Shown: positions 1,825 to 17,304, numbered from the stretch's first letter. The stretch is DNA of 33,457 bases from Promethearchaeota archaeon (GCA_029838195.1 JALGVJ010000037.1:1-33457), one strand, 5' to 3'. Notes: generated by a model not told the origin, from the sequence alone. A program made the numbers and translations.

Positions 1825-2916
1825 TTATTGTGAGTATTTGTAATAAATGGCGCAAGTGCCTTCATGAGAAACCATGCACGGTCCGATTGGATTCAGGGGA
1901 GTGCAAGTAGTTTTAAACAATTTGCATTCATATGGATATATTTTTCCGGTCATTACTAAGTGGCACGAACATCCTGGAGGGATATCCATCGATTGTTTCA
2001 CTTGGATATTAAATTTTTCTTCGGCATCGTATTGTTTATATTTCGAATTAATTTTAAGACCCCCATCTAATACTCGTCCAATTCCCCTCCATGGGGATGA
2101 GATTTTTTCAAATACTTCTTTTATAATGTTTTGGGCTATTAAATTTCCTTCAGGTTTAACGACTCGAGAATACTCGTTTAACGTGTCATATTTTTTATCT
2201 CGAATGAGTTTTAACACCATGAAGAGTCCTAACAGCACGTCATTGGGCTCGAATCCTGTTATGACATTGGGAACGCGATAAGCTTCTGAAAATAATTTAA
2301 AGGGAGATAAGCCAATTATGCTGGCCACGTGTCCTGGTGAGATAAATCCATCAATGTTAAGCCTGTCAATACTCATTAAAAGTTCCAATGCTGCTGGAAT
2401 TAATTTATGGGCACATAAAACAGAAAAATTGGAGGGCGGATGAGAAAAGAGTTCATATCCAATCAAGGGAACCGTGGTTTCGAATCCAATGGCAAAAAAA
2501 ATAACATTTTTATTGGGATTGTCTCTTGCTATTTTAACCGCATCATGAGGGCCGTATATAATTCGAATATCTGCACCTTTTGCTTTAATTTCAGCAAGAG
2601 AAAGATTTGTAGCCGGCACGCGTATCATATCTCCAAAGGTCGTGATAATGGTATTTTTTCGCTTGGCAAGTAAAATAGCTTTATCAATATCAGCAGCGGG
2701 GCAGACACATACAGGGCATCCGGGACCAGAAATGATTTCCAAATCTGATGAAAGCAAGGAGCGGATACCGAATCTTGAAATGACATGTTCGTGCGTTCCG
2801 CAGACGTGCATGATTTTTATGGGACGACCGAGTTCTTTCATTATTTTATTTAGGGAGGCAACGATCTTTTTGGTAAACTCTTTGCTTTTTAGCGTGCTAA
2901 GGCCTGGGAAACTCAT
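1825..2916 (-). CDS. hypD: Hydrogenase maturation protein HypD
   Basis: MHVCGTHEH, GPGCPVC, GFETT, PGHV, GFEP and C-terminal CxC...C..F...CTP..PIGPCMVS.EGTC motifs. Confidence 0.97.
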   Translation of the reverse strand: MSFPGLSTLKSKEFTKKIVASLNKIMKELGRPIKIMHVCGTHEHVISRFGIRSLLSSDLEIISGPGCPVCVCPAADIDKAILLAKRKNTIITTFGDMIRVPATNLSLAEIKAKGADIRIIYGPHDAVKIARDNPNKNVIFFAIGFETTVPLIGYELFSHPPSNFSVLCAHKLIPAALELLMSIDRLNIDGFISPGHVASIIGLSPFKLFSEAYRVPNVITGFEPNDVLLGLFMVLKLIRDKKYDTLNEYSRVVKPEGNLIAQNIIKEVFEKISSPWRGIGRVLDGGLKINSKYKQYDAEEKFNIQVKQSMDIPPGCSCHLVMTGKIYPYECKLFKTTCTPLNPIGPCMVSHEGTCAIYYKYSQ

Positions 2917-3054
2917 TTTAACGAGGGATGCATTGTTAATATACTGATAATATGGAAAATATCTTAGATTTAATAAATAGAATGGATATGGAAATTAAGT
3001 CTTTCAAGAAGGAAAAAATTTTTAATGAGATTTATTCATTATACCTTATTAAAA

Positions 3055-4065
3055 TTAAGGTTCAACATAATATTTTCCTTCTTTCTTGTATACAAATCTA
3101 AGGAAGAGACCCGTGAGAAGTTTCATGAAGAATTTCATCATGGTTCTTTTGACGGGATTTTGCTTTAATCCGGGATAACCTTGAATTTTTTGAGCGGTGA
3201 TCTCGTGAAGGTGTTTCCAAGCGCGGATTGAAACATCCACAAACTTTTCAGGATCCAATACCTTTGAGGGCATTTGAATTTGGGGGGAATTGAGATCATT
3301 CGTGAGATACAAGCGTCCATCTCGCACGTCTTCTTCCTTGGAAGCACGAATTCGGACGGGATTATCATCAAATAATTCGGGATTCGTCAGATACACGGGT
3401 ACCAGGAGGTCCCAAATAATGGTATGGTCAATTTTGTGGATCATGCTCTCTAACCAGAGGGAATCTTCAAAAATTTGCCTGACATGTTTCGGCCAGAACT
3501 CTAGTTTTTTCAAGTGCTCCTTAGTAAAGGGCGCTTGCTTGCAGATATGACAATTGAAGACGGTTACCGGACAATCTGCCTGCAACACGTGAAAAGCTGC
3601 AATATCATCTCGCCTAAGATTTACGTCTTTAATTTTTGTACGCCCGATCGTGACGCGATCTTTAATAATACCGCCCATTAAGACGATTTCTTTTAAATTC
3701 TTAAAAAAATTGGGATCTAATTCTGCAGCACCTTTTAAATTGGTAAGAGGTCCCATGGCTAATAAGGAAATTTCTCCAGGATGAGCTACTGCTTGTTCTG
3801 CAAGGAATTTGGCAGCTTCTGTTGAGTAATCTCCTTTTTTAGCAGCACCTTTCAAGATGGGTATATCATCCCTACCAATAGCCCGCATGATTTTTTTCGT
3901 AGCTTTCATGACGTTATTAATATTACTATTTCCAAACACCGTTGTAATTCCAAGCAGCTCAAAATCCGGTACTCCAAGCACGTAATAGATTGCAAATCCA
4001 TCATCTGAGAACCATAACAGTTTTCCCATGGTATTATCGCAATCAATAATAATTTTTTTTTTCAT
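3055..4065 (-). CDS. Nucleoside hydrolase (IU-NH family)
   Basis: N-terminal DCDNTMG....DDG Asp cluster, LLGITTVFGN, MGPLTNL, VLMGG, and a late WD motif at the position of the family HD motif. Confidence 0.88.
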   Translation of the reverse strand: MKKKIIIDCDNTMGKLLWFSDDGFAIYYVLGVPDFELLGITTVFGNSNINNVMKATKKIMRAIGRDDIPILKGAAKKGDYSTEAAKFLAEQAVAHPGEISLLAMGPLTNLKGAAELDPNFFKNLKEIVLMGGIIKDRVTIGRTKIKDVNLRRDDIAAFHVLQADCPVTVFNCHICKQAPFTKEHLKKLEFWPKHVRQIFEDSLWLESMIHKIDHTIIWDLLVPVYLTNPELFDDNPVRIRASKEEDVRDGRLYLTNDLNSPQIQMPSKVLDPEKFVDVSIRAWKHLHEITAQKIQGYPGLKQNPVKRTMMKFFMKLLTGLFLRFVYKKEGKYYVEP

Positions 4066-4296
4066 GATTTTAATTCACTTCTCTACATGTAAAATAAAAG
4101 AGATGTAAAGGGTCAGTCTACATTAATTAATTTAAAAGGTTAGTAAAATTATTTGAGCAAAAATGAAGATTATATATTAAATTTTCGTAATTTTTACATG
4201 TTTGCTTTTAATTAAATCATGTTTAAGATATAAAAAAATGATGTTTAAAACCATTTTTTACACGTGAGAAATCACCAAGCTGCTTTTCCGATAAAC

Positions 4297-4378
4297 AATC
4301 ATCCATTAAAATAAATCATTATAATTTTCTCATGCTTCTATCTTGAACCAATAATTATCAATTGATTAATGGATGATT
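4297..4378. promoter_or_regulatory. 13-bp perfect inverted repeat in the divergent promoter region
   Basis: AATCATCCATTAA (4297-4309) and TTAATGGATGATT (4366-4378) are exact reverse complements, 56 nt apart. The regulatory role is inferred. Confidence 0.35.
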
Positions 4379-4570
4379 AAAATTAATATCAAGAATTTCA
4401 TGGAAAAATATAAACTTTTTCTTACTTTAAAAAGCGTTCCAAATCCAAAATTGACATGTTTGGAAGAAAAACTTATGAAAAATATTAAATACTGGTTATG
4501 AATTTTATTTGATAATGTTTAAGCATGAATCTTTTCATACCGTGGAACGAATAAAAAAGAGAGATTAATC

Positions 4571-5800
4571 ATGTTTCATGCGTTGGATGAAAAAACGGTT
4601 ACTGAATACATACTGAAATCTCCCATTGGAAATACAATTTTCGAAGGATTAAATGACTTGATTGGAGTAGATTTGGCAGAAGGCAACGTTAATCTTGTAT
4701 TTCGCGTGTATAGTAAGAGTAATCCTGAAAAATCCGTGATCGTGAAGCAAGCTCTTGATCATGCCAGGCGTTATCCCGATTTTAAAATGCCTCAAAAAAG
4801 AGCCGCTTTAGAAGCTGAAATGCTAAAAATCGAGAATAAATATTGTCCTGGCCTAGCTCCCGAACATTATTATCATGATGAGGAAATGTATTTGAACATC
4901 ATGGAAGATTTAAATAAACACGTGATCATGCGCGTAGGGCTCATGCAACAAGTAAAATATCCTAAATTTGCCGAGCATCTTGGTACGTTCCTAGCAAGAA
5001 CGTTGTTTTATACTTCAGATTTTTATCTGCCTTCTGCTGAGAAAAAAGAGATGGCAGCAAGAATCTTAAACACCGTCATGTGCAAAGTTACAGAAGATCT
5101 CATCTTTACAGAGCCTTATATCGATCATTCTAATAATCATTGGACGAAAGAATTAACACCCCATGTGAAAGCGATTAAGGCAAACAAAAAAATGCAAGCA
5201 GAAGCTTTAAAACTCAAAGAATCTTTCATGACGCATCAGCAAGCTTTAATTCACGGGGATCTTCATACAGGCTCCATCATGATAAATCAACAAGAAACGA
5301 AAGTTCTGGATCCAGAGTTTGCGTTCTTCGGCCCAATGGGGTTTGATATAGGGATGCTTTTAGCGAATTTAGTTATTAGCCATGGTTCGCAAGAGTATCA
5401 TGCGAAAGATGAAAACACGAGACAAGAATATCGGGAATGGTTATTACAAACCATTGAAGATACATGGAATCAATTCGAATCCGAATTTAGATACTTGATG
5501 GAATATAAAATTAATGACCAATGGCCCTCCGAACTATTTAAGGAAGAGTACGTGGCACAATTACTACGTGATACCGCTGGTTTCGGTGCGGCAGAGATCA
5601 TTCGCAGGACAATTGGAATGGCACACGTCCCAGATTGGTGGGAGATTCCGAGTGATAAAGAGCGAGCAGTTGCAGAAAGCATTGGGTTAAGCGCAGCGGA
5701 AGCATGGATGCTACATCAACATGAAGTTACGTCCATTAAAGAATTAGTTGATATGGTTCGGGAGGCTCGCCCTCATCCGGACGTTTTAAAAGCGAGGTGA
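4571..5800 (+). CDS. mtnK: S-methyl-5-thioribose (or 5-deoxyribose) kinase
   Basis: GNVNLVF, VKQAL, TEDLIFTEPY, HGDLHTGS, DPEFAFFGPMGFDIG and EIIRRTIGMAHV motifs of the MtnK family. Confidence 0.93.
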   Translation: MFHALDEKTVTEYILKSPIGNTIFEGLNDLIGVDLAEGNVNLVFRVYSKSNPEKSVIVKQALDHARRYPDFKMPQKRAALEAEMLKIENKYCPGLAPEHYYHDEEMYLNIMEDLNKHVIMRVGLMQQVKYPKFAEHLGTFLARTLFYTSDFYLPSAEKKEMAARILNTVMCKVTEDLIFTEPYIDHSNNHWTKELTPHVKAIKANKKMQAEALKLKESFMTHQQALIHGDLHTGSIMINQQETKVLDPEFAFFGPMGFDIGMLLANLVISHGSQEYHAKDENTRQEYREWLLQTIEDTWNQFESEFRYLMEYKINDQWPSELFKEEYVAQLLRDTAGFGAAEIIRRTIGMAHVPDWWEIPSDKERAVAESIGLSAAEAWMLHQHEVTSIKELVDMVREARPHPDVLKAR

Positions 5801-6870
5801 ATCAAGTGAGCACGTATAAGAGTATTGAATGGAAAGAGGATCGATTGGTTCTATTAGATCAGCGAGTCCTTCCTCGTGAAATTTCCTATATAGAATATAA
5901 GCATCATGAAGACGTAGCTAAAGCCATCAAGGATATGGTCGTGCGTGGTGCTCCTGCAATAGGCGCAACAGCTGCTTATGGCTTAGTCTTGGCCACGCGG
6001 GAAAAAGCCACGAAAGAACTTTCAGAACTTCGTAATTATCTTAGCAAGGCAGCAGAACTCCTCCAGGCAGCTCGTCCAACAGCAGTTAATTTATTTTGGG
6101 CAATTGATCGAGTTATAAAAAAAGCTCATGAGGATTCAATTAAAACCGTGGAGGATTTAAAAAAAGTCGTACTAAATGAAGCACATCAAATTGCGGAAGA
6201 AGATATAGAAATGAATAAAAAAATTGGATTAAATGCCTTGCCTTTATGTTCAGAGAAAGTTACCTTCATTCATCATTGTAATACGGGTGCCTTAGCGACG
6301 GTTGACTATGGTACTGCTTTAGGCATCATTCGTACGGCTCATGAACACGGAAGAGATGTATTTGTTTACGTGGATGAGACTCGACCCCGCTTACAAGGGG
6401 CTCGTTTAACTTCTTGGGAACTAAAGCAATTAGGAATAAAACATAAAGTCATTGTTGATGGAGCTTCAGGATACTTCATGGCAACCGGAAAAGTGGATTT
6501 AGTGACTGTTGGGGCAGATCGCATTGCCCGAAATGGAGATACGGCTAATAAAATTGGAACATACAATCTTGCAATTGTTGCAAAAGCCCATGATGTTCCT
6601 TTTTATGTAGCCGCTCCCACGAGTACAATTGATTTATCAATTGCCAACGGAAAAGAGATAAAAATAGAAGAACGCTCCGCTGAAGAGATAACAACGATTT
6701 TGGGTCAACAAATCACGCCTGATGACGTGAATGTTGCAAATCCCGCTTTTGATGTTACCCCGGCAAAGTATATTACAGGTATCATAACAGAGATGGGTAT
6801 TGCACGCCCGCCTTATGAAAAAAGTTTAACGGAAATGGTAGAACGTGCGGAAAATGAGAGAAAAAAATGA
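5797..6870 (+). CDS. mtnA: S-methyl-5-thioribose-1-phosphate isomerase
   Basis: LLDQR.LP, MVVRGAPAIG, ARPTAVNL, HCNTGALAT, ETRP.LQGARLT, GADRI..NGD.ANKIGTY and NPAFDVTP motifs. The start may be the in-frame GTG at 5806, which lies 5 nt after GAGGTGA. Confidence 0.95.
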   Translation: MNQVSTYKSIEWKEDRLVLLDQRVLPREISYIEYKHHEDVAKAIKDMVVRGAPAIGATAAYGLVLATREKATKELSELRNYLSKAAELLQAARPTAVNLFWAIDRVIKKAHEDSIKTVEDLKKVVLNEAHQIAEEDIEMNKKIGLNALPLCSEKVTFIHHCNTGALATVDYGTALGIIRTAHEHGRDVFVYVDETRPRLQGARLTSWELKQLGIKHKVIVDGASGYFMATGKVDLVTVGADRIARNGDTANKIGTYNLAIVAKAHDVPFYVAAPTSTIDLSIANGKEIKIEERSAEEITTILGQQITPDDVNVANPAFDVTPAKYITGIITEMGIARPPYEKSLTEMVERAENERKK

Positions 6871-7035
6871 ATTAATGAAACTACATGAGAACTTTCTAAA
6901 ATTTAACTTAAAGATTATTTTTCTTGATTTAATTTAAATGACAATTCATGAACAAGAATAAAAACGTTATCATTTAAAATCTCTACTAAATACAAATTTA
7001 CGATATAAATTTAAATAGAATAATAGGTTAAAAAG

Positions 7036-7992
7036 ATGCATTTTAATAGAGAAAAAACTTCGGTGTTAGATTCGAATTGGCAAGAAAGAGCTCGGCAAAT
7101 AGCTCATCGAGTTCGATGCAGGGTTTTAGAGCACGTGATTAAGAATAATGGGGGTTATCTTAGTCAAGCATGCTCTTCCGCCGAAACTTTGGCCACGCTT
7201 TATGTGAAAATAATGAACTTGGGGCCGAGTCAAGGTCCCATGATCCCTCAACCTTTTTCGGGAGTGCCGAGTGCTGATAATCCCGACTATTTCCGAGGAA
7301 GTGCGTATAATGGGCCAAAATCTCCGGAATTAGATCGTTTTTTCTTTGGGCCTGTCCATTATTCATTAGTACTTTATTCCGTGTTAATTGAAGTAGGAAG
7401 AATGGCTCCTAGCGCATTAGACCAATTCAATCAAGATGGAAGCACGGTAGAAATGATTGGAGCCGAGCATTCACCGGGTATAGAACTAACAAGTGGGAGC
7501 TTGGCTCAAACATTAAGTCAAGCGGGGGGGATTGCGTTGGCTCGAAAGCTAAAGGGAGAAACCGGCCGTTGTTGGGTATATCTTTCAGATGGAGAATTTC
7601 AAGAAGGACAAACATATGAAGCGTTTCAAGCTCTGGCATATTATAATATAGACAATATTGGCGTATATGTAGACGTGAACGGTCAGCAATGCGATGGGAA
7701 AATGACGGATGTCATGAATATTGAACCATTAAAAGAGCGGTTAGAAGCTTTTGGGGCCCGCGTCTTTAAAGTAAACGGACATGATGTCAATGAGCTTGCA
7801 GCTCCGGCAAGTCTTAAACCAGATGGAAGGCCACTTGTCGTCTTAGCTTATACAGATCCGTGTAGGGGGATATCATTACTGGAAGAGCGGAGGCCTCGCC
7901 TTCATTACGTGCGGTTCAAGAGTGAGGAAGAAAAACAGCGGTATATCGAATATTTAAAACTTTTAAAGAAAGAACTCGAAGTGGAGGTGTGA
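7036..7992 (+). CDS. Transketolase-like ThDP enzyme, N-terminal (PP-binding) subunit, non-canonical active site
   Basis: DRFF...H, PGIE.TSGSL.Q.LS.A.G.A, ThDP/Mg motif SDGEFQEGQTYEA...DVN..Q.DG, and VNGHD. Confidence 0.88.
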   Translation: MHFNREKTSVLDSNWQERARQIAHRVRCRVLEHVIKNNGGYLSQACSSAETLATLYVKIMNLGPSQGPMIPQPFSGVPSADNPDYFRGSAYNGPKSPELDRFFFGPVHYSLVLYSVLIEVGRMAPSALDQFNQDGSTVEMIGAEHSPGIELTSGSLAQTLSQAGGIALARKLKGETGRCWVYLSDGEFQEGQTYEAFQALAYYNIDNIGVYVDVNGQQCDGKMTDVMNIEPLKERLEAFGARVFKVNGHDVNELAAPASLKPDGRPLVVLAYTDPCRGISLLEERRPRLHYVRFKSEEEKQRYIEYLKLLKKELEVEV

Positions 7993-7995
7993 TAC

Positions 7996-9003
7996 ATGGA
8001 AATTTTAACTAAAGTTCACAATCATAATTTAGTTAAATGGGCAAGAGATAAGCCAGAAGTCGTAGTTCTTTCAGCTGATCTTACAAGCTCTACGGAAATT
8101 GATATGTTTCGAGAAGCATATCCCAATAGGTTTTTTTCAATGGGCATGGCAGAACAAAACATGGTGAGTTTTGCGGGAGGTCTCGCACGGGAGGGTTTTT
8201 ATCCCTTTATTCACACGTTTGCGGTCTTTATCTATAGACAAGCTTATAATCAAATCGTGTGCTCAGTTGCGTATCCAAATTTGCCTGTACGATTTTTTGG
8301 TTTTCTTCCCGGTATTACAACACCTGGAGGTATAACGCATCAAGCGATTGAGGATATTGCAGTCATGAGAGTAATTCCTAACATGACAGTTATAGAACCT
8401 GGGGATGCCACCGAAATCGAGACCATGTTGGATGTAATACAGGCAGTAAATGGACCCGTATACGTGCGCATGTTGCGAGGGGAAATTCCCCGTCTTTTTC
8501 CTCAAGAAGAGCCTTTTCGATTGGATGAGCCTCGCTTGCTTAGTACGGGCTCTGACATCACTGTATTTTCAAGTGGAATCTGCACTGAAGAGGCAATTAG
8601 AGCCATTAAAGTTCTTAAAGAATGTGGTGTTTCCATTCAGCACGTCCATGTTTCTACCCATAAACCTTTTAAAAATCCTTTAATTCTCGAGGGCGTGAAA
8701 AAAGCTAAGTATGGCATCATTACAATGGAGAATCATGCGATTTTGGGCGGTTTGGGAACAGAAATTGCTGAATTAATGGCAGACCATGGCGTGAGTAAAC
8801 AATTGATTCGAATGGGGTTGAAAGATTGTTTTGCTCATGGAGCTTCTCGTCATTATCTCATGAAAGAATATGGGTTTGATTCATTATCATTAATAAAACA
8901 AGTAGAAACCTTATTAGGAACTTCATTTAATATTTCCGAAGATGATCTTGCTGCTGTTCGGATTGAACCCATTCATAGTGATGCGAAACCAGAAGCTTTA
9001 TAA
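7996..9003 (+). CDS. Transketolase-like ThDP enzyme, C-terminal (pyrimidine-binding plus C-terminal) subunit
   Basis: LSADL..S, RFFSMGMAEQNM...A.GLA, TFA.F..R, THQAIEDIA.MR.IPNM.V..P.D, GPVYVR..R, ENH...GGLG. Preceded by a GGAGGTG ribosome-binding motif. Confidence 0.9.
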   Translation: MEILTKVHNHNLVKWARDKPEVVVLSADLTSSTEIDMFREAYPNRFFSMGMAEQNMVSFAGGLAREGFYPFIHTFAVFIYRQAYNQIVCSVAYPNLPVRFFGFLPGITTPGGITHQAIEDIAVMRVIPNMTVIEPGDATEIETMLDVIQAVNGPVYVRMLRGEIPRLFPQEEPFRLDEPRLLSTGSDITVFSSGICTEEAIRAIKVLKECGVSIQHVHVSTHKPFKNPLILEGVKKAKYGIITMENHAILGGLGTEIAELMADHGVSKQLIRMGLKDCFAHGASRHYLMKEYGFDSLSLIKQVETLLGTSFNISEDDLAAVRIEPIHSDAKPEAL

Positions 9004-9008
9004 TAGGG

Positions 9009-10139
9009 ATGAGCATGAAATTAAGTGGAGAAAGATTTAAAGTCATTTATAGTTTGACAGGCAATGCTGAGGAGGCTAGGAAAAAAGCTAAGGATATTTG
9101 TTATGAGCAAACCGTAGAATTTCCAGAAGATTTAATTCCTTCGGGAATAATAAAGGAGGAAATCGTGGGAAAAATTGAGGATTTAATTAAAATTGAGGAA
9201 AATCGATTTAAAGCCACTATTAGTTATGCAATAGAAATTACTGGTTTTGAAATCACCCAAATCCTCAACATAATTTTCGGTAATATTAGCATTAAACCCG
9301 GAATCAAGGTGGAGAACATCCAATTTTCAGACCTGCTCCTTAAACACTTTAAAGGACCCCGATTTGGACGATCAGGAATAAGAAAATTGCTTGACGTTCC
9401 GAATCGACCAATATTATGCACGGCATTAAAACCCATGGGCCTTTCTCCCCAACAATTAGCCGATTTCGCATATCAATTTGCCAAAGGAGGCATTGATATC
9501 ATTAAAGATGACCATGGTATTGCAAACCAAGAATTTTGTCCCCTTGAGAAGCGCATTAAATCATGTTGTGAGGCGGTTGAAAAAGCAAATCGTGAAACGG
9601 GCTATAATTGTCTTTACATGCCAAATATTGGTGGCCCTTTGGAAAAAATTAGGGATAAAATAATGATGGCGAAAGAAACTGGGGTAGGAGGTCTGTTGCT
9701 TTGTCCAGGTCTCATCGGGTTTGATATTTGTCGCCAATTAACCGAAAATGATGATATTTTGCTGCCGGTATTAGCTCATCCCGCACTTTTGGGAAGTTTT
9801 GTTACCAGTCGTGAAAATGGGATTTCCCATGGGATTATTTTTGGTCAACTTATGCGATTAATAGGAGCAGATGCCATCATCTATCCGAATTATGGAGGAA
9901 GATTCTCTTTTACCCCAGAAGAATGTAAATCTATTGTCGAAATGACTCAATCCCCCATGGCACACTTTTCTCCTATTTTTCCAGCTCCAGCAGGAGGGAT
10001 GACCATGAACCGCATCCCTGAAATGCTTGATTTTTATGGAAATGAGGTAATTTTCCTCATTGGAGGAGATTTACATCGTCATGGAAAGAACCTCATAAAA
10101 AATAGTAAAAAATTTAAAAAATTAGTCGAAAGTTTATGA
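9009..10139 (+). CDS. RuBisCO-like protein (form IV RLP), resembling the MTRu-1-P 1,3-isomerase type
   Basis: EQTVE, FGN, GPRFG..G.R, CTALKPMGL, GGIDIIKDDHG (9504-9515 = KDDH), AHP, GAD..IYPNYGGRF, PAPAGG, LIGG. Several carboxylase residues are substituted. An alternative start is ATG 9015. Confidence 0.92.
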   Translation: MSMKLSGERFKVIYSLTGNAEEARKKAKDICYEQTVEFPEDLIPSGIIKEEIVGKIEDLIKIEENRFKATISYAIEITGFEITQILNIIFGNISIKPGIKVENIQFSDLLLKHFKGPRFGRSGIRKLLDVPNRPILCTALKPMGLSPQQLADFAYQFAKGGIDIIKDDHGIANQEFCPLEKRIKSCCEAVEKANRETGYNCLYMPNIGGPLEKIRDKIMMAKETGVGGLLLCPGLIGFDICRQLTENDDILLPVLAHPALLGSFVTSRENGISHGIIFGQLMRLIGADAIIYPNYGGRFSFTPEECKSIVEMTQSPMAHFSPIFPAPAGGMTMNRIPEMLDFYGNEVIFLIGGDLHRHGKNLIKNSKKFKKLVESL

Positions 10140-10436
10140 TATTACATCTTCATTAAATTGGTAAAGTCAAAAACTTAATGAACCATGCTGAATGAATCGT
10201 GCAACTTAATTTTTCTTATTATAACTTTCCATTTTTTTTTAATTATAATGAACTCATTTTCTATCCATTCATGGATGCTTGATTCAATAAAGTAAAAAAC
10301 TCGAATCTTCTATCATAGAAGGGTTAGTTGATCAGAAAAACAATTCACTTCAATTAAAAATTTAAAATTGTTGAAAAGATTTCATTTCAAGTACCACGTG
10401 TCGATTCACGACTCATTTTTATCATATAAAAGTAAT

Positions 10437-11123
10437 TCACTTAATTTTTCCATATATTAATTTAACAGGATATTTTGCAGCAAGTTCATAATTCTTCGGA
10501 GATATCTCAGCAGTTAATACCCATAATTCATCCGGTTTCTTATAAAGATGTTCATATAATTTACTAACTTGGACAAAATGGTATATATCTCGATAATCAG
10601 CTTTAAATTTTATTTCCATGAGTATTGTTTTACCATTTTCAATGAGAATGTCAATATCCGTGGTATATCCTTTAGGAAAGAATAGTCCCTCCTCATCCCT
10701 TAATTCAATCCGTTCTATGCGTTTTATTTCAATATCCTTTAATTCATGAACTTCTTTTAATAAATTCAAGACCATCTCTTGAGTCCCTTTTCCTCCTCTA
10801 TCTCCTATATTATCAATCGCACCCTTCAGTTCATCAAATCGCTTATCCATGGCCTTGAATCGTTCATTCATCTGCTTGATGAGGGCTTCAAATCGCTTAT
10901 CCACGGCCTCGAATCGTTCGTTCATCTGCTTGATGAGGGTTTCGAATCGCTTATCCACGGCCTCGAATCGTTCGTTCATCTGCTTGATGAGATCTTCGAA
11001 TCGTCGGTCTAAATCTTCCTTAGTTGGCACGATAGTAGATAAAACAGAAAGGATAGCTCCCTTTACCTCATCATCTTCACGAATTAATTTCGGGAGTAAT
11101 TTTAAAAATTCTTCTTTTTCCAT
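10437..11123 (-). CDS. Coiled-coil plus PD-(D/E)XK nuclease-fold protein (DUF3782-like archaeal family)
   Basis: N-terminal EEFLKLLPKLIREDDE, an 18-aa coiled-coil repeat, and C-terminal DIDIL...LMEIK nuclease-like motif. Confidence 0.7.
   Translation of the reverse strand: MEKEEFLKLLPKLIREDDEVKGAILSVLSTIVPTKEDLDRRFEDLIKQMNERFEAVDKRFETLIKQMNERFEAVDKRFEALIKQMNERFKAMDKRFDELKGAIDNIGDRGGKGTQEMVLNLLKEVHELKDIEIKRIERIELRDEEGLFFPKGYTTDIDILIENGKTILMEIKFKADYRDIYHFVQVSKLYEHLYKKPDELWVLTAEISPKNYELAAKYPVKLIYGKIK
10837..11003. repeat. Intragenic tandem repeat, 3 x 54 bp plus a partial copy
   Basis: Units begin at 10837, 10891 and 10945 (AATCGCTTATCCAYGGCCTYGAATCGTTCRTTCATCTGCTTGATGAG...). They encode (E-x-LIKQMNERF[E/K]A[V/M]DKRF)n on the minus strand. 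Confidence 0.95.
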
Positions 11124-11189
11124 TTGTTGAATTCCTCTAAATCTACTATATTAAATTTTAATATTAATATTAATTTTTTTTATTGAAAA

Positions 11190-12239
11190 TTAGCAAATTC
11201 TAGGGATGTTTTCACCCAGCGGCATGTCTATAAACCGAGTTCCACCAATAAGCGTATTTAATAATACTTTTTTTGGATGATCTTTTTTAACTTCTCCAAT
11301 AATTTCGGCATCTTTTCCAAGGGAAGTTTTTCGTATTTTCATTAAAATCTCATGAGCACGGGTAGATTCCACGCATAACAAGGCTCTTCCTTCCGAAGCA
11401 ATATTAAAGGGATCCAAACCTAACATTTCACAGATCGCTTTTACTTCCTTTTTAATAGGAATTGTATCTTCTTCAAGATAGATGCTTTTATTTGATTTTT
11501 TGGCCCAATCATTTAGAGCGGCAGCAATACCTCCTCGAGTAGGATCTTTCATAGCGTGGATGGAATTTTTCTTGAGATCTTCTTTAATTATCTCCATGAT
11601 AGGAGTGAGAACAGTGAGATCGGAATTTAATTCTGAAGTGATGTTCAATCCTTCTCGAGCTGCCATTAAAGCTGTTCCATGATCACCAATGGTTCCCGTA
11701 ATAATGATCTTATCTCCCTCTTTCAGATTCTTATCCTCTATCCTGATTGTTTTCTCACGAATCCCTATTCCCGTGGTAGCAAGGATCATTTCATTTAAAG
11801 TTCCTCGAGGCATGACTTTTGTATCACCGGCAATTATTGCTAAGCCCAACTCATTAGCCGTGGTATTAAATGAATTCATGATTTTTTCTAAGGTCTTAAA
11901 TTTTAACCCCTCTTCCACGATGACAATAGAAGTTAACGCTAAGGGTTCTGCGCCCATCATTAACAAGTCATTTACCGTTCCACAGATGCTCAACTTGCCA
12001 AGATCTCCTCCTGGAAAAATGAGGGGATGAATTGTATGCCCATCAGCAGTAATGACGAGTTCTTGATCCTTCCATTTTAAGGGAATGGTCGCACCGTCGT
12101 CCATTTCCTCTAATCCGATTCCATTGTTGAGATTTTTTTTGAAAATGCTTTTAGTAATGAAATTAATGAGTTCTTCTTGTAAAATCCCACCAGCACCATG
12201 AGCTAAACGAATGCTTTTTGACCCTTCAAATGCATTCAT
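11190..12239 (-). CDS. hypE: Hydrogenase maturation protein HypE (carbamoyl dehydratase)
   Basis: LAHGAGG, DDGA, FPGGDLGKLSICGTVNDL, GDTKV, GDHG, DPTRGG, and the C-terminal PRIC with the catalytic Cys. Confidence 0.97.
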   Translation of the reverse strand: MNAFEGSKSIRLAHGAGGILQEELINFITKSIFKKNLNNGIGLEEMDDGATIPLKWKDQELVITADGHTIHPLIFPGGDLGKLSICGTVNDLLMMGAEPLALTSIVIVEEGLKFKTLEKIMNSFNTTANELGLAIIAGDTKVMPRGTLNEMILATTGIGIREKTIRIEDKNLKEGDKIIITGTIGDHGTALMAAREGLNITSELNSDLTVLTPIMEIIKEDLKKNSIHAMKDPTRGGIAAALNDWAKKSNKSIYLEEDTIPIKKEVKAICEMLGLDPFNIASEGRALLCVESTRAHEILMKIRKTSLGKDAEIIGEVKKDHPKKVLLNTLIGGTRFIDMPLGENIPRIC

Positions 12240-12552
12240 GATAAGTATGAGAAAGTTTCCATTGTAAAAAGAATTTGGTTCTGATAATTAATAAGGGGTT
12301 ATCTCGAAGAAATTAGAGCATTGTTGAAAAACAAGCTACTCTAATTAACAATGGATATTCTTTTTCTCGTGTATTTACCTTATAATTTACCATTCTTTAA
12401 TTTTAATTAGAAAAAGGGAGGTGGCTTTTTCTTTATGGTCTAAATTTTACAAAAAGAATCAGGAATAATAACATCAATACTCATGATTCGATAAAATAAA
12501 CCTTTTTTAGGAAAAAAACATGAGTTAATTAATAACATCTCCATGGAATTTG

Positions 12553-13668
12553 ATGGAAAAAAGAATGTCTGAAAAAACATTGTATAAAGTCGCCAAGCTC
12601 ATCGTGAGAGCAAGTGGTAATCCATTATTTCAAGCTAACGCAACTTTAGTCGAGCTTTTAAAAACCTTGTTGACGGAAGAACAGATAAATTTCTTGCTCC
12701 ATTTTAAGAAACCCTCTTTAACCTTTCTCGAATTAAAAGAAAAAACGGGCATGGATGATGAGACTTTAATGAAAATGCTCAATTCATTGATGGATAATGG
12801 ATTTCTAATGGATTGGCCCGTTAAAGGATCAGACATGATGGAATATCGTTTGTTGCCTCCTATAGCGGATACATTCGAATATTCACTAGTGCGATTAGAT
12901 AGACCCCTCGAGCAGAAAAAGAAATTAGCAAAAATATATGAAAAAATGTTCCAAGAAGCTACAGAACTGACCCAAACGAATTATGATGGTTTAATGCCAA
13001 TCTTCAAGGAAAAAATGCCCGTATTTGCTCGAATTATTCCCATTGAAAAAGAAATATCCGTTCCTCAAGAAAAAGTCTTACCCCTCCATGAAGCTTCCAA
13101 AATTGTTGAAAATCAAGAAATAATTTCTCTTTCTCAATGTCCGTGTAAACTCCAAAGAGAACTCTTAGATGATCCTTGTAAAATCGCTTCTGATATTAAT
13201 AGATGCATGCATTTCGGCAATATAGGACGCTATTTTATAGAACACGGGCTTGGAAAACAAATTACCCGAGAAGAGGCAAAACAAGTTTTAAAAGAAGCCG
13301 AAGCCGAAGGTCTCGTCCATAAGACTTTTCACGATGATTTCAATATCGAGCAGAATGAAAATGCGATTTGCAATTGCTGTAAGGATTGTTGCATACTTTT
13401 TCAGAGTTATTACCGCGGGATTTTCGCCTATCACACTTTAACATCATATCTAGCGCGTGTCGATACATCAAAATGCAAAGCTTGTGGAACGTGCGTTGAG
13501 AAATGCCCTATTGAGGCTTGTTCTATCAAAGATGGGAAATCTTTCGTTGATGAATATCGTTGTATTGGATGTGGAGTCTGCGTACATCATTGTCCCGAAA
13601 AGGCAAGATCGTTACATCGAACTGAATTGAGAGAAATATACTTACCACCTCCAAAAATTAAAAAATGA
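12553..13668 (+). CDS. Iron-sulfur protein: N-terminal winged-HTH-like region, Cys-rich core, C-terminal 2x[4Fe-4S] ferredoxin
   Basis: CPCK, C..RCM, GLVH, ICNCCKDCC, CKACGTCVEKCP and CIGCGVCVHHCP. Start uncertain (TTG 12550, ATG 12553 or ATG 12565). Confidence 0.8.
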   Translation: MEKRMSEKTLYKVAKLIVRASGNPLFQANATLVELLKTLLTEEQINFLLHFKKPSLTFLELKEKTGMDDETLMKMLNSLMDNGFLMDWPVKGSDMMEYRLLPPIADTFEYSLVRLDRPLEQKKKLAKIYEKMFQEATELTQTNYDGLMPIFKEKMPVFARIIPIEKEISVPQEKVLPLHEASKIVENQEIISLSQCPCKLQRELLDDPCKIASDINRCMHFGNIGRYFIEHGLGKQITREEAKQVLKEAEAEGLVHKTFHDDFNIEQNENAICNCCKDCCILFQSYYRGIFAYHTLTSYLARVDTSKCKACGTCVEKCPIEACSIKDGKSFVDEYRCIGCGVCVHHCPEKARSLHRTELREIYLPPPKIKK

Positions 13669-13983
13669 TAAATGATGGATGAAATTAATGGTTAATAGAA
13701 TTTTTTTTTTAATTAAATTAAGGAGTTAAAAATTAATTAATATAAATTTAAAAGTATTATCGTCCGAAAAACACGGATTCTGATTTTTATTATCTTTTAA
13801 ATTAAGATTAAGCGAGAAATGAATAGAAATTATCAATTAATAATCATGTGAGCGCATGAATCAAGCCCTCTAAATATATAACAGGGGGGTTATTAGTAGA
13901 AAACCATTCTTCCATTGCCAAATGAGTTTAAAATTGTTTTTTAAATTAAATAAAATAAATACATAAAGAATTTGATGATAATT

Positions 13984-16900: not shown

Positions 16901-17301
16901 TTAACGAATAAATCACGATCTTCTGTAGCTTCAATAGCTTCAATTGGAGTTCCTAATACTTTAACACCATATTTTTGAAGGATTCCCTTATGATATAATT
17001 CTACCCCAACATTTAATCCGGTTTGTCCTCCAAATGATAAACAAATTCCATCTGGTTTCTCTTTTTTTATTATTTCTTCTACGCATTTAGGGGTTATGGG
17101 TAGAAGATAAACTCGAGAACTCATTTGTGGATCTGTTTGAATGGTAGCAATATTTGGATTAATCAAAATAGTTTCAATATTTTCTTCGTTAAGAGCCTTG
17201 AGTACTTGACTTCCAGAATAATCAAATTCACCAGCTTGGCCAATTCGAACGGCCCCAGAACCTAAAACTAAGACTTTTTTTAAAGATTTATCCAATGGCA
17301 T
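13984..17301 (-). CDS. carB: Carbamoyl-phosphate synthase large subunit
   Basis: VLGSG...IGQAGEFDYSG.Q, NPNIATIQTD, GIHTGDS, RLSRSSALASKATGYP, a second ATP-grasp (NYNPETVSTDYD, GVHSGDAT) and a C-terminal MGS-like domain. Confidence 0.98.
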   Translation of the reverse strand: MPLDKSLKKVLVLGSGAVRIGQAGEFDYSGSQVLKALNEENIETILINPNIATIQTDPQMSSRVYLLPITPKCVEEIIKKEKPDGICLSFGGQTGLNVGVELYHKGILQKYGVKVLGTPIEAIEATEDRDLFVKAMNKANCPVCKSTAVNNYRDAVEAAKIIGFPLMLRVAYVLGGQGSGLIHNWDQFEKIAKRGLAQSRINQILIEESVWGWKEIEFEILRDSEDNCFINCSMENVDPCGIHTGDSIVVAPAQTLTDEELQMLRSASIRATKTVGVCGECNIQWALDPFSKNYRAIEINARLSRSSALASKATGYPLAYIAAKIAIGYTLPELLNQIALKTTAHFEPLTDYIVVKYPRWDLIKFEKVDRHIGPQMKGVGECMSIGRNFEEACQKALRMLDIGLKGFVANDLPPIEDINELKYELSHPTDLRFLRIGEAIKKGISIDEIYERTRIDEWFLYKLKNIIDVEEQLKKINLLDTSEEEKKEVLMLAKRYGFSDGQIAKILNTSTPTIRRLRKRYNIIPYVKQIDTLAGQVNPQRHYLYLTYWANKHDINFEQEWQQKDLRKVIVLGSGTYRIGASVEFDWGSVNCLWGLKKLGINKAIMINYNPETVSTDYDISDRLYFEELSGERVLDIAELEKPHGIVLNAGGQIAQNLAAKFSKYSDFYRKTNIKILGTPGSRIDLAENRAKFSKLLDQLSIKQPEWATVTSMKDALEFARAVGFPVLVRPSYVLSGAAMRVSYDEKTLIDTLELAAAVSSEYPVVISKFFTDSREIECDGVSDGKKVLIGAIIEHIENAGVHSGDATMVIPPQTLHEKIITKIEEYTRKIALALHIVGPFNIQYLVKNGEVYVIECNLRSSRSMPYVSKTRGINLMRVAAEVIMGKEIPERLLNLPYGDFVSVKSPMFSFMRLDKADPVLGVEMNSTGEVAVISDDFPSALMMALESAEQYIPINGGNVLVSVGGEELKKKVIPLAIKLKKLGFKIYATEDTAKALKANNIDAIKLYKIHEHGMQPNIKQYLQEGQIDMVINIPMPSTAENKFRTILEDEYLIRRMAVDYNIPVLINLQLANAVVNAIKKVRRRKTFTVKSLNDYHQMLKEINW

Positions 17302-17304
17302 TTG

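What the first reader, a model, noticed from the sequence alone, without database searches (positions are those of the whole stretch)
3055..10139. Candidate undescribed SAM by-product pathway: nucleosidase, MtnK, MtnA, RLP isomerase and a split ThDP enzyme
Seen: mtnK, mtnA, transketolase-like N and C subunits and a KDDH-type RLP are co-oriented, with a nucleoside hydrolase divergent upstream. No mtnB/C/D, class II aldolase or cupin gene is in the window. Established: after MtnK/MtnA, known routes use MtnB/W/X/D (universal methionine salvage), a class II aldolase (DHAP shunt, 5-deoxyribose disposal), or RLP 1,3-isomerase plus cupin sulfurylase giving DXP and methanethiol (Rhodospirillum rubrum MTA-isoprenoid shunt). 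Inference: this is a further variant. MTA or 5'-deoxyadenosine would go to MTR or 5-deoxyribose, then the 1-phosphate, then MTRu-1-P or 5-deoxyribulose-1-P. The RLP would give 1-methylthio-xylulose-5-P or 1-deoxy-xylulose-5-P, and ThDP-dependent C2-C3 cleavage would release glyceraldehyde-3-P plus a C2 unit. That unit could leave as (methylthio)acetaldehyde or be transferred to an aldose. It could also lose CH3SH in a phosphoketolase-like elimination to give acetyl-ThDP. Such an O2-independent route would suit an anaerobic archaeon that makes isoprenoids by mevalonate and has no isoprenoid use for DXP.
Basis: partly seen in the sequence, partly recalled or inferred. Interest (0 to 1): 0.92.

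Follow-up and report, generated by a model that had tools for sequence, protein, structure and literature searches.

The report
RuBisCO-like/odd-transketolase salvage island in Asgard
An Asgard archaeon has picked up from bacteria a compact gene set that most likely breaks down the sugar left-overs of S-adenosylmethionine chemistry through a RuBisCO-like isomerase coupled to an altered transketolase-type enzyme, a widespread pairing that I found described in no paper I could search.

Summary
All six genes are intact at the stated coordinates. There is no mtnB/C/D, class II aldolase or cupin gene in the window.

- The split ThDP enzyme belongs to a tight subfamily found in at least 579 bacterial species genomes.
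- Its two halves are adjacent in 70 of 73 evaluable loci.
- A DeepYkr-like RuBisCO-like protein follows in 55 of 64.
- mtnK and mtnA lie in 11 of 80 loci, and directly upstream in 6.

The enzyme keeps every cofactor residue and the phosphate-binding arginines. It has replaced four sugar-contact residues in all 66 members examined: H26 to Y, H100 to M/L, H461 to F, D469 to G. That fits a ketopentose 5-phosphate without a 1-hydroxyl, which is the expected RLP product.

Three points are new here:
- The host is an Asgard archaeon.
- The cluster is an 8.3-kb insertion between hypD and hypE, which are adjacent in four relatives.
- Its TK-RLP genes nest among bacterial sequences.

- The nucleosidase is an Asgard-type gene that is absent from the bacterial clusters.
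- Aldolases are not mutually exclusive with the pair.
- The chemistry is untested.

The scan has flagged this pairing before in other, bacterial, genomes.

The parts
2917..11189 (.). Inserted island between hypD and hypE
   Evidence: hypD (1825-2916) and hypE (11190-12239) are about 160 bp apart in four relatives from four genera (L093-L096). Here they are 8.3 kb apart. GC is 0.39-0.40 in 6-10 kb, against 0.29-0.37 in the 2-kb bins beyond 10 kb. No flanking direct repeats were found.
3055..4065 (-). Divergent IU-type nucleoside hydrolase, 336 aa; candidate source of free 5-substituted ribose
   Evidence: PF01156, 138.6 bits. All NCBIfam equivalogs are far below cut-off. The best PDB matches are plant and bacterial nucleoside hydrolases, E about 1e-17. 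Orthologues at 51-54% identity occur in three Asgard relatives. None occurs in the 80 bacterial loci.
4066..4570 (.). 505-bp AT-rich divergent intergenic region between the nucleosidase and mtnK
   Evidence: Sequence read. No Rfam match at E up to 1.
4571..5800 (+). MtnK-family 5-methylthioribose / 5-deoxyribose kinase, 409 aa
   Evidence: TIGR01767, 468.9 bits, cut-off 275. 74% identical to a gene in one Asgard relative, G013. 33-55% identical to cluster-linked bacterial copies.
5797..6870 (+). MtnA-family 1-phosphate aldose-ketose isomerase, 357 aa, GTG start overlapping mtnK
   Evidence: TIGR00512, 449.7 bits, cut-off 279. Second copy in the genome beside a native one on C87.
7036..7992 (+). 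N-terminal (PP-domain) subunit of an atypical split ThDP enzyme, 318 aa
   Evidence: PF00456, 59.5 bits. Transketolase equivalog NF004559 scores 140.8 against a cut-off of 488. The subfamily is 57-78% identical across phyla. Y41 replaces His26 and M140 replaces His100 of E. coli TktA, in 66/66 members.
7996..9003 (+). C-terminal (Pyr plus C domain) subunit of the same enzyme, 335 aa
   Evidence: PF02779 and PF02780. Best PDB match is 6YAJ, a split transketolase, E 2.6e-60. E53, H115 and R161 are kept. F103 replaces His461 and G111 replaces Asp469, in 66/66 members.
9009..10139 (+). Form IV RuBisCO-like protein, DeepYkr-like, 376 aa
   Evidence: Best PDB match is the RLP 3QFW, 262 bits, against 166 bits for the next, a YkrW-type RLP. 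KDDH is found in 55 of 59 family members. MtnW, form III and OiaX equivalogs are all far below cut-off.
10437..11123 (-). PD-(D/E)XK / DUF3782 coiled-coil protein at the island's right end; role unknown
   Evidence: PF07788 and PF12644. Not found between hypD and hypE in relatives. Contains three 54-nt tandem copies.

Best explanation
The five co-oriented genes form a self-contained, horizontally acquired route for the 5-substituted ribose left over from S-adenosylmethionine use. The divergent nucleosidase may also belong to it.

Proposed steps:
1. Free 5-deoxyribose or 5-methylthioribose is phosphorylated by MtnK. The sugar would be released from 5'-deoxyadenosine or MTA (or their inosine forms) by the nucleosidase, or taken up from outside.
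2. MtnA isomerises the product to the 5-substituted ribulose 1-phosphate.
3. The RuBisCO-like protein moves the carbonyl, as the Rhodospirillum rubrum RLP does. The product is 1-deoxy- or 1-methylthio-xylulose 5-phosphate.
4. The altered split ThDP enzyme cleaves C2-C3. This releases glyceraldehyde 3-phosphate and keeps a C2 unit on ThDP.
5. The C2 unit leaves as acetaldehyde or (methylthio)acetaldehyde, or as an acetyl unit after loss of methanethiol.

What is shown: gene identities, conserved linkage, the residue pattern of the ThDP enzyme, and the insertion.
What is inferred: every substrate, the order RLP before the ThDP enzyme, and the fate of the C2 unit.

The host lacks a spermidine synthase hit, so 5'-deoxyadenosine from radical SAM enzymes is the more likely main source.
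For: Identities: MtnK and MtnA pass equivalog cut-offs. The RLP is closest by far to the DeepYkr-type structure 3QFW.

Linkage: at least 579 species genomes carry the TktN subfamily. TktC is adjacent in 70/73 loci and the RLP in 55/64. mtnK and mtnA lie in 11 of 80 loci and directly upstream in 6, four of them (L026, L051, L082, L085) in the window's gene order and spacing. All 5 genomes checked that carry the pair have MtnA somewhere.

Other links to methionine and aldehyde metabolism:
- MetX-MetW fusions lie directly upstream in three Planctomycetota loci, and one locus has a Cys/Met PLP enzyme downstream.
- SDR and ADH genes recur nearby, and an aldehyde-dehydrogenase microcompartment locus sits directly before tktN in L052.

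Active site:
- The ThDP, Mg and catalytic residues H66, D155, N185, E411 and H473 are kept. H261 is kept as H290.
- The distal phosphate residues R358, S385 and R520 are kept.
- H100 is M/L. From my memory of the transketolase structures it contacts the donor's 1-hydroxyl. E. coli Dxs, whose C2 unit carries a methyl, aligns F there.
- H26 is Y, D469 is G and H461 is F in all 66 members.

The host has a canonical split transketolase next to a transaldolase-like gene elsewhere.

The island came in as a unit. It splits hypD from hypE, and its genes nest among bacterial homologues. L026, a bacterial locus with the same gene order, is 55-65% identical across all five genes.

No Dxr or ARD was found in the genome.
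Against: - No biochemical test was possible.
- The RLP is only about 40% identical to 3QFW. It carries a 6-residue insertion after the AHPA motif that resembles YkrW-type enolases, so its reaction may differ from the R. rubrum one.
- Most bacterial loci (about 66 of 80) show no mtnK or mtnA within 10 kb. Their neighbours are varied sugar ABC transporters, SorC/RpiR regulators and SDRs. The pair might therefore serve a broader or different sugar phosphate.
- Eight of 64 loci have the ThDP enzyme without an RLP. In a sample of 201 Chloroflexota, four genomes have a more distant TktN (49-55% identity) without the RLP, and two have the RLP without it.
- The residue roles come from my memory of the transketolase literature and from a sequence alignment, not from a structure.
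- The nucleosidase link rests on adjacency in this one genome.
- The host already has MtnP, MtnA and FucA-like aldolases, so the island is not needed merely to remove MTA.
Confidence: 0.55

Rival explanations
1. Same pathway up to the RLP, but the ThDP enzyme is a true transferase. It passes the 1-deoxy or 1-methylthio C2 unit to an aldose phosphate and builds a longer deoxy- or thio-sugar phosphate. It does not release an aldehyde or an acetyl unit.
For: It keeps the transketolase fold, the acceptor-side His261 equivalent (H290) and the phosphate-binding R/S/R triad. Ordinary transketolase is reported to make 7-deoxysedoheptulose from 5-deoxyribose in Synechococcus (abstracts of PMC8102628 and bioRxiv 10.1101/2020.12.30.424818, listed).
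Against: Asp469, which from memory fixes the acceptor's 2-hydroxyl, is Gly in all members, and His26 is Tyr. No downstream enzyme for such a product is conserved next to the pair. The window's island has no further gene to process it.
Confidence: 0.15
2. The tktN-tktC-RLP module degrades some other imported sugar phosphate that has nothing to do with SAM. The MtnK/MtnA homologues next to it in a minority of genomes are retargeted paralogues.
For: Most loci carry sugar ABC transporters and SorC/RpiR regulators rather than mtnK and mtnA. RLPs and split transketolases both act in D-apiose catabolism (my memory of Carter et al. 2018; the RLPs of that pathway are mentioned in PMC6302742).
Against: MtnK and MtnA here pass NCBIfam equivalog cut-offs by a wide margin. 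The apiose RLP model OiaX scores only 79.6 bits against a cut-off of 700. The RLP's nearest solved relative is the DeepYkr type. metX-metW and a Cys/Met PLP enzyme flank the pair in other phyla. The hydrophobic replacement at the 1-hydroxyl position fits a 1-deoxy or 1-thio ketose.
Confidence: 0.2
3. The ThDP enzyme acts before or instead of the RLP, directly on 5-substituted ribulose 1-phosphate. It would eliminate the 1-phosphate to give acetyl-ThDP and a 3-carbon aldehyde.
For: A beta-phosphate would be a good leaving group. Eight of 64 loci have the ThDP enzyme without an adjacent RLP.
Against: The position next to C1 (H100) became hydrophobic rather than cationic. The distal phosphate site (R358, S385, R520) is conserved. 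This is the opposite of what a 1-phosphate, 5-methylthio substrate would need.
Confidence: 0.07
4. It is an ordinary split pentose-phosphate transketolase that merely happens to lie between salvage genes.
For: Pfam assigns the usual three transketolase domains.
Against: Four substrate-contact residues are replaced in all 66 members. Equivalog scores are far below cut-off. The genome has a canonical split transketolase beside a transaldolase-like gene on C51. The subtype was not found in 40 relatives.
Confidence: 0.02

Closest known systems
MTA-isoprenoid shunt of Rhodospirillum rubrum (MtnP, MtnA, DeepYkr RLP 1,3-isomerase, cupin methylsulfurylase, then DXP into the MEP pathway; Erb et al. 2012 and Warlick et al. 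2012, cited in PMC13474568 and PMC6302742)
   Same: MtnA followed by a short (about 375 aa) KDDH-type RLP whose nearest solved relative is the DeepYkr-type 3QFW. The route is oxygen-independent.
   Different: No cupin gene lies next to the RLP; a divergent split ThDP enzyme sits there instead. Entry is through MtnK rather than MtnP. The host has no Dxr hit, so DXP cannot feed isoprenoids. The RLP is only about 40% identical and has an extra loop.
DHAP shunt / 5-deoxyribose disposal (MtnK or DrdK, MtnA or DrdI, class II aldolase Ald2 or DrdA; Beaudoin et al. 2018, PMC6079011; Huening et al. 2025, PMC12632272)
   Same: The same first two enzymes and the same logic: phosphorylate, isomerise, then cut the pentulose phosphate into a triose phosphate and a C2 aldehyde. 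It serves both MTA and 5'-deoxyadenosine sugars.
   Different: The cut would be made by a ThDP enzyme after an RLP isomerisation, giving GAP rather than DHAP. No aldolase is in the island. In some bacterial loci an aldolase sits beside the pair, so the two are not exclusive.
Split-chain transketolase of Carboxydothermus hydrogenoformans (PDB 6YAK/6YAJ) and canonical TktA
   Same: Two-subunit PP and Pyr/C architecture. ThDP, Mg and catalytic Glu/His residues are conserved.
   Different: His26, His100, His461 and Asp469 (E. coli numbering) are Y, M/L, F and G in all members. The first 90 residues barely align.
1-Deoxy-D-xylulose-5-phosphate synthase (Dxs)
   Same: A ThDP enzyme that joins or splits a methyl-bearing C2 unit and GAP. 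The residue aligned with His100 is hydrophobic in both. The proposed reaction on DXP is the Dxs reaction run backwards, without CO2.
   Different: TIGR00204 scores 177 bits against a cut-off of 466. Dxs keeps His26 and Asp469. Dxs is a single chain.
Sugar-phosphate-utilisation microcompartments (SPU; Sutter et al. 2021, PMC8217296)
   Same: In L052 the pair follows shell proteins and an aldehyde dehydrogenase. The SPU aldolase makes GAP plus acetaldehyde from a deoxypentose phosphate. That is the same product pair proposed here for DXP cleavage.
   Different: This is seen only in one clade of Chloroflexota. The paper mentions neither transketolase nor RLP. No shell genes are in the window.

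Membership tests
MtnK, S-methyl-5-thioribose kinase (TIGR01767) | Whole-protein score above the curated equivalog cut-off | tested here: met
   468.9 bits against 275, covering 2-396 of 409 residues.
MtnK, S-methyl-5-thioribose kinase (TIGR01767) | Preference for methylthioribose over 5-deoxyribose | not testable with these tools
   DrdK-type 5-deoxyribose kinases belong to the same family (PMC6079011). No residue rule is known to me.
MtnA, S-methyl-5-thioribose-1-phosphate isomerase (TIGR00512) | Score above the equivalog cut-off and below the ribose-1,5-bisphosphate isomerase cut-off | tested here: met
   449.7 bits against 279. TIGR00511 scores 214.2, below its cut-off of 314.1.
Canonical transketolase (EC 2.2.1.1) | ThDP/Mg binding motif and the catalytic Glu and His | tested here: met
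   H108, G154, D185, N215, E53 and H115 align with E. coli H66, G114, D155, N185, E411 and H473. H290 aligns with the His261 equivalent.
Canonical transketolase (EC 2.2.1.1) | Sugar-contact residues His26, His100, His461 and Asp469 | tested here: not met
   They are Y41, M140, F103 and G111. The same replacements occur in 66/66 family members (M or L at 140).
Canonical transketolase (EC 2.2.1.1) | NCBIfam equivalog score | tested here: not met
   NF004559 scores 140.8 (N subunit) and 197.8 (C subunit) against a cut-off of 488.
DXP synthase | TIGR00204 equivalog score; His26 and Asp469 equivalents | tested here: not met
   177 bits against 466. E. coli Dxs keeps H and D where this family has Y and G.
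DeepYkr RLP, 5-methylthioribulose-1-phosphate 1,3-isomerase | Form IV RLP closest to the DeepYkr representatives; K-D-D-H metal/carbamate motif | tested here: met
   3QFW scores 262 bits over residues 4-370, against 166 bits for the next RLP. KDDH is at residue 166 and in 55/59 relatives. That 3QFW belongs to the DeepYkr clade is from my memory.
DeepYkr RLP, 5-methylthioribulose-1-phosphate 1,3-isomerase | Same clade as the characterised R. rubrum enzyme, and the same reaction | not tested
   I had no R. rubrum sequence and no cupin-linked set for a tree. A 6-residue insertion after AHPA distinguishes it from 3QFW.
MtnW (YkrW) DK-MTP-1-P enolase | Equivalog score; MtnB dehydratase to make its substrate | tested here: not met
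   TIGR03332 scores 179.5 against 513.6 and NF007095 scores 231.9 against 409. The FucA-like aldolases of the genome score below the MtnB cut-off: 56-87 bits against 137.
Carboxylating RuBisCO (form III) | Equivalog score; Lys177 of the KPK motif | tested here: not met
   TIGR03326 scores 150.9 against 497. The motif reads LKPMGL.
IU-nucleoside hydrolase | PF01156 above the gathering score | tested here: met
   138.6 bits against 34.2.
IU-nucleoside hydrolase | Contiguous N-terminal DxDxxxDD motif and the 5'-hydroxyl contacts (Asn, Glu) | tested here: inconclusive
   The motif is split by about 7 residues (DCDNTMGKLLWFSDD). Where relatives read N..AEAN, this protein reads R..KDVN. Residue roles are from memory.
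MTA-isoprenoid shunt (whole pathway) | Cupin methylsulfurylase next to the RLP, and a MEP pathway to take up DXP | tested here: not met
   No cupin is in the window. One Cupin_3 occurs among 43 downstream neighbours. No Dxr was found in the genome.
DHAP shunt (whole pathway) | Class II aldolase acting on the MtnA product | tested here: inconclusive
   None is in the island. Three FucA-like proteins lie elsewhere in the genome, all below equivalog cut-offs.

The most novel reading that the evidence does not exclude
The altered ThDP enzyme is a new kind of C-S-cleaving, phosphoketolase-like lyase.

After cutting 1-methylthioxylulose 5-phosphate it would expel methanethiol from the ThDP-bound C2 unit and release an acetyl unit as acetyl phosphate, acetyl-CoA or acetate. 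With GAP, this would give an oxygen-independent methionine salvage that recovers all five ribose carbons and the sulfur. On the 5-deoxy branch the same enzyme would run the Dxs reaction backwards.

The invariant cysteines at TktN 46 (QACS) and 219 (QQCDG), close to the cofactor motifs, would take part.
Probability: 0.2. Interest if true: 0.85.

Novelty: new variant of a known kind. Interest (0 to 1): 0.72.

Why it matters
Every cell makes 5'-deoxyadenosine and MTA, and both must be removed. As far as I know, only three downstream routes are established: the universal dioxygenase pathway, the DHAP shunt and the cupin-dependent isoprenoid shunt.

A fourth route built on a RuBisCO-like protein and a re-tooled transketolase would have several consequences:
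- It would assign a function to an enzyme pair present in hundreds of bacterial species across more than ten phyla.
- It would extend the catalytic range of the transketolase/Dxs family.
- It would explain how anaerobes without a MEP pathway deal with the RLP product.

The Asgard case adds a natural experiment. Five genes moved together into a new domain of life, which argues that they work as one unit. It also gives a minimal gene set to reconstitute.

Tried and rejected
I could not look at the contigs of the closest unnamed homologues (TktN 78%, RLP 65-70%) or at the other assemblies of this species. The listing of cluster members gave no names.
- Literature: nine searches combined transketolase, RLP, DeepYkr, mtnK/mtnA, methylthioxylulose, 5-deoxyribose and microcompartment. 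None found a paper that joins a transketolase to an RLP in SAM by-product salvage. Erb 2012, Tabita 2007 and North 2020 are not held, so a remark in those papers cannot be excluded.
- Rfam found nothing in 2800-12400 at E up to 1.
- No flanking direct repeats or att-like sites were found at the island borders.
- A phylum-wide co-occurrence test in Chloroflexota gave too few positives for statistics: 3 genomes with both genes out of 201.
- One of the two RLP-only genomes in that sample, G226, is flagged unpublished. Nothing in this report depends on it.
- I did not run structure prediction or complex prediction. Halves of a split enzyme would pass by likeness, and ThDP is not an offered ligand.
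- A tree of TK-linked against cupin-linked RLPs was not possible, because no cupin-linked sequences were at hand.

Full report
**1. Observation**

- MtnK (4571-5800) and MtnA (5797-6870) pass NCBIfam equivalog cut-offs by a wide margin: 469 against 275 bits, and 450 against 279 bits.
- The two transketolase-like ORFs (7036-7992 and 7996-9003) carry the PP domain and the Pyr plus C domains.
- ORF 9009-10139 is a RuBisCO large-chain homologue.
- ORF 3055-4065 on the other strand is an IU-type nucleoside hydrolase.
- mtnK and mtnA overlap by 4 bp. tktN-tktC-RLP are 3 and 5 bp apart. A 165-bp gap separates the two groups.
- Pfam scans of the other ORFs of at least 100 aa in the window found no aldolase, cupin or MtnB/C/D. 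The one ORF not scanned, 25767-26432, is a paralogue of the NTP-transferase gene at 25069-25770.

**2. What the parts are**

The RLP's nearest solved structure is the 378-residue RLP 3QFW: E 7e-77, 262 bits, aligned end to end. YkrW-type enolases score 150-166 bits and carboxylating forms about 130 bits or less. It has LKPMGL, KDDH, AHPA and PNYGGR where RuBisCO has KPK, KDDE, H294 and H327/K334. 3QFW has the same variants. It differs from 3QFW by a 6-residue insertion after AHPA that looks more like the YkrW type. The models for MtnW, form III and the apiose RLP OiaX are all far below cut-off.

The ThDP enzyme's C subunit aligns well with the split transketolase 6YAJ (E 2.6e-60). The N subunit aligns well only from residue 94 onwards.

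**3. The ThDP enzyme is not an ordinary transketolase**

I aligned four sets of sequences: 66 family members, E. coli TktA, E. coli Dxs, and the host's own canonical split transketolase (C51).

| Role | E. coli TktA residue | This family |
|---|---|---|
| ThDP/Mg binding | H66 | H108 (H in 51, Q in 15) |
| ThDP/Mg binding | G114 | G154 |
| ThDP/Mg binding | D155 | D185 |
| ThDP/Mg binding | N185 | N215 |
| ThDP activation | E411 | E53 |
| Cofactor pocket | F434, F437 | kept |
| Catalytic His | H473 | H115 |
| Catalytic His | H261 | H290 |
| Distal phosphate | R358 | K6 (R or K in the family) |
| Distal phosphate | S385 | S32 |
| Distal phosphate | R520 | R161 |
| Sugar contact | H26 | Y41 (66/66) |
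| Sugar contact | H100 | M140 (M or L, 66/66) |
| Sugar contact | H461 | F103 (66/66) |
| Sugar contact | D469 | G111 (66/66) |

- In the transketolase structures as I remember them, His100 holds the donor's 1-hydroxyl, His26 and His261 hold the 3-hydroxyl, Asp469 holds the 4-hydroxyl, and His461 is part of the phosphate site.
- A hydrophobic residue at the 1-hydroxyl position with an intact phosphate site is what a 1-deoxy or 1-methylthio ketopentose 5-phosphate would call for. E. coli Dxs, whose C2 unit carries a methyl, aligns Phe there.
- The pattern is the reverse of what the MtnA product would need, since that compound has its phosphate at C1 and a thioether at C5. This is the main argument for the order MtnA, RLP, ThDP enzyme.
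- The argument is an inference from alignment, not from a structure.

**4. Conservation**

The TktN subfamily is 57-78% identical across phyla. A scan of one genome per species found more than 598 pattern matches, of which 579 were confirmed. All 80 retrieved loci are bacterial. They come from Chloroflexota, Planctomycetota, Spirochaetota, Nitrospirota, Acidobacteriota, Bacillota, Chromatiaceae, Omnitrophota, Verrucomicrobiota, Myxococcota, Calditrichota and Deinococcota.

Where the contig allows a judgement:
- tktC follows tktN in 70 of 73 loci.
- The RLP follows tktC in 55 of 64 loci. It lies 8 kb away in one more and is absent from the locus in 8.
- mtnK and mtnA are both within the locus in 11 of 80.
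- They are directly upstream of tktN in 6: L016, L026, L051, L063, L082 and L085. Four of these (L026, L051, L082, L085) have the window's gene order and spacing.

All five carriers tested have MtnA somewhere in the genome.

The immediate co-oriented neighbours are otherwise mixed:
- sugar ABC components, SorC and RpiR regulators, and SDRs;
- MetX-MetW fusions in three Planctomycetota loci;
- three class II aldolases, one Cupin_3 and one Cys/Met PLP enzyme.

In a clade of Chloroflexota, EutN-type shell genes precede tktN (4 loci). In L052 a microcompartment locus lies there, with EutN, BMC-H and an aldehyde dehydrogenase. This would fit an aldehyde product, but it counts as one evolutionary event.

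In an even sample of 201 Chloroflexota:
- three genomes have the pair, adjacent;
- four have a more distant TktN (49-55% identity) without an RLP;
- two have the RLP without the TktN.

The link is therefore strong for the core subfamily but not absolute.

**5. The host and the insertion**

Earlier agents called this genome an Asgard (Loki-type) archaeon. I found a full-length actin at 443 bits plus three further actin-family genes, which fits that call.

- The flanking hypD is 79% identical in the same-genus genome and 70-75% across the family, so the contig is native.
- The TktN subtype and the RLP subtype were not found in any of 40 relatives. Those genomes have only canonical split transketolase at 30-35% identity and other RuBisCO forms at 35% or less.
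- In four relatives from four genera, hypD and hypE are about 160 bp apart. Here they are separated by 8.3 kb that holds the nucleosidase, the five salvage genes and a PD-(D/E)XK gene.
- GC rises to 0.39-0.40 across 6-10 kb, against 0.29-0.37 in the 2-kb bins beyond 10 kb.
- A concatenated TktN+TktC+RLP tree places the window inside the bacterial radiation, next to a Spirochaetota/Acidobacteriota group (SH-like support 99, FastTree). The best identity is 64%, so no donor can be named.
- L026, a bacterial locus with the same gene order, is 55-65% identical across all five genes. This fits transfer of the operon as a block.
- The same proteins occur at 99-100% identity on other assemblies with contigs up to 45.9 kb. 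The island is therefore not an assembly chimera.
- One other Asgard genome, G013 (78% complete), has an mtnK-mtnA pair at 74% identity next to an MFS transporter, without the TK-RLP genes on that short contig.

**6. The nucleosidase**

It was not found in any bacterial locus. Orthologues at 51-54% identity occur in three Asgard relatives that lack mtnK. In two of them the gene sits beside a GPH/MFS transporter.

Its N-terminal aspartate motif is interrupted. The positions that bind the 5'-hydroxyl in relatives (from memory) read R and D instead of N and E. That would suit a 5'-modified nucleoside, but it proves nothing. Its membership in the pathway rests on adjacency here alone.

**7. The rest of the genome**

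- The host already has an MTA phosphorylase (TIGR01694, 282 bits against 275) and a second MtnA.
- It has three FucA-like class II aldolases and one Cys/Met-family PLP enzyme.
- No Dxr, ARD or spermidine synthase was found in a genome that is 96.6% complete.

The island therefore adds an entry for free 5-substituted ribose (MtnK) and a new downstream branch. Without a spermidine synthase, 5'-deoxyadenosine from radical SAM enzymes is the more likely main source. On that branch the RLP product would be DXP. This archaeon cannot use DXP for isoprenoids, and the ThDP enzyme could split it into GAP and an acetaldehyde equivalent.

**8. Comparison and novelty**

The nearest known systems are the R. 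rubrum MTA-isoprenoid shunt and the DHAP shunt.
- The isoprenoid shunt shares the RLP step, but uses a cupin and the MEP pathway downstream.
- The DHAP shunt shares the first two enzymes, but cuts with an aldolase.

The ThDP enzyme fails the membership tests for transketolase and for Dxs, although it keeps their cofactor machinery. None of the papers I could search links an RLP with a transketolase in this context. Three key papers were not held.

This scan has reported the same pairing at least eight times in other, bacterial, genomes, with the same reading. Those are unchecked AI notes, and I tested the linkage and the residues myself. New in this window are the Asgard host, the demonstrated insertion, the minimal gene set and the divergent nucleosidase.

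I rate it a new variant of a known kind. It is interesting because it is widespread, undescribed in the papers I could search, and directly testable. It remains unproven because no step of the chemistry has been shown.

Noticed in passing
window 12550-18438: This is a second difference from the relatives. A 4Fe-4S protein gene and carB/carA lie between hypE and hypF here. In G001 hypE and hypF are about 250 bp apart (L093), and in G024 about 1 kb apart (L096).
   Followed up: partly
window 10834-11003: Three tandem 54-nt copies (89-100% identical) lie inside the PD-(D/E)XK/DUF3782 coiled-coil gene at the island's right end.
   Followed up: no
window 31452-32879 and 27894-29303: A TRZ/ATZ amidohydrolase of the family that includes MTA and 5'-deoxyadenosine deaminases (5'-deoxyadenosine deaminase model 204 bits, below cut-off) and a GPH/MFS_2 sugar symporter lie 18-21 kb from the island. 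Homologues of the symporter sit beside the nucleosidase orthologues in two relatives (L108, L109). This hints at a deaminase, inosine-type nucleosidase and uptake theme.
   Followed up: partly
L052:5944-9918: A bacterial microcompartment locus (three EutN, one BMC-H, an aldehyde dehydrogenase and two unassigned ORFs) lies co-oriented directly before tktN-tktC-RLP in a Chloroflexota MAG. mtnK, mtnA and an ABC importer lie upstream. EutN also precedes tktN in L041, L050 and L072.
   Followed up: partly
L043:6-1625, L074:7863-9755, L075:7816-9705: Genes for a MetX (homoserine O-acetyltransferase) - MetW fusion lie directly upstream of tktN in three Planctomycetota loci. This links the pair to methionine synthesis where mtnK and mtnA are not nearby.
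   Followed up: partly
L110, L111, L113 (G055, G091, G100): A sister group of the odd ThDP enzyme (49-56% identical) occurs in small, 61-65%-GC Chloroflexota genomes without any RLP. In L111 it is followed by a solute-binding protein, a metallo-beta-lactamase-fold protein, a phosphodiesterase and three SDRs; L110 and L113 show ORFs of matching sizes that were not scanned. Its function is unknown.
   Followed up: partly
L106 (G013:C271) 4554-6857: Another Asgard genus carries an mtnK-mtnA pair 74% identical to the window's. It lies next to an MFS transporter and a heterodisulfide-reductase-like gene, without TK-RLP on that 8.4-kb contig.
   Followed up: partly
window 3055-4065: The nucleosidase ends in a roughly 45-residue extension rich in hydrophobic and basic residues (MMKFFMKLLTGLFLRFVYKK). 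It may be a membrane anchor, which is unusual for this family.
   Followed up: no
TktN residues 46 and 219: Two cysteines are invariant in the 22-member alignment, in QACS and in QQCDG. The second lies four residues after the Mg-binding Asn. Canonical transketolase has no cysteine at either place.
   Followed up: no
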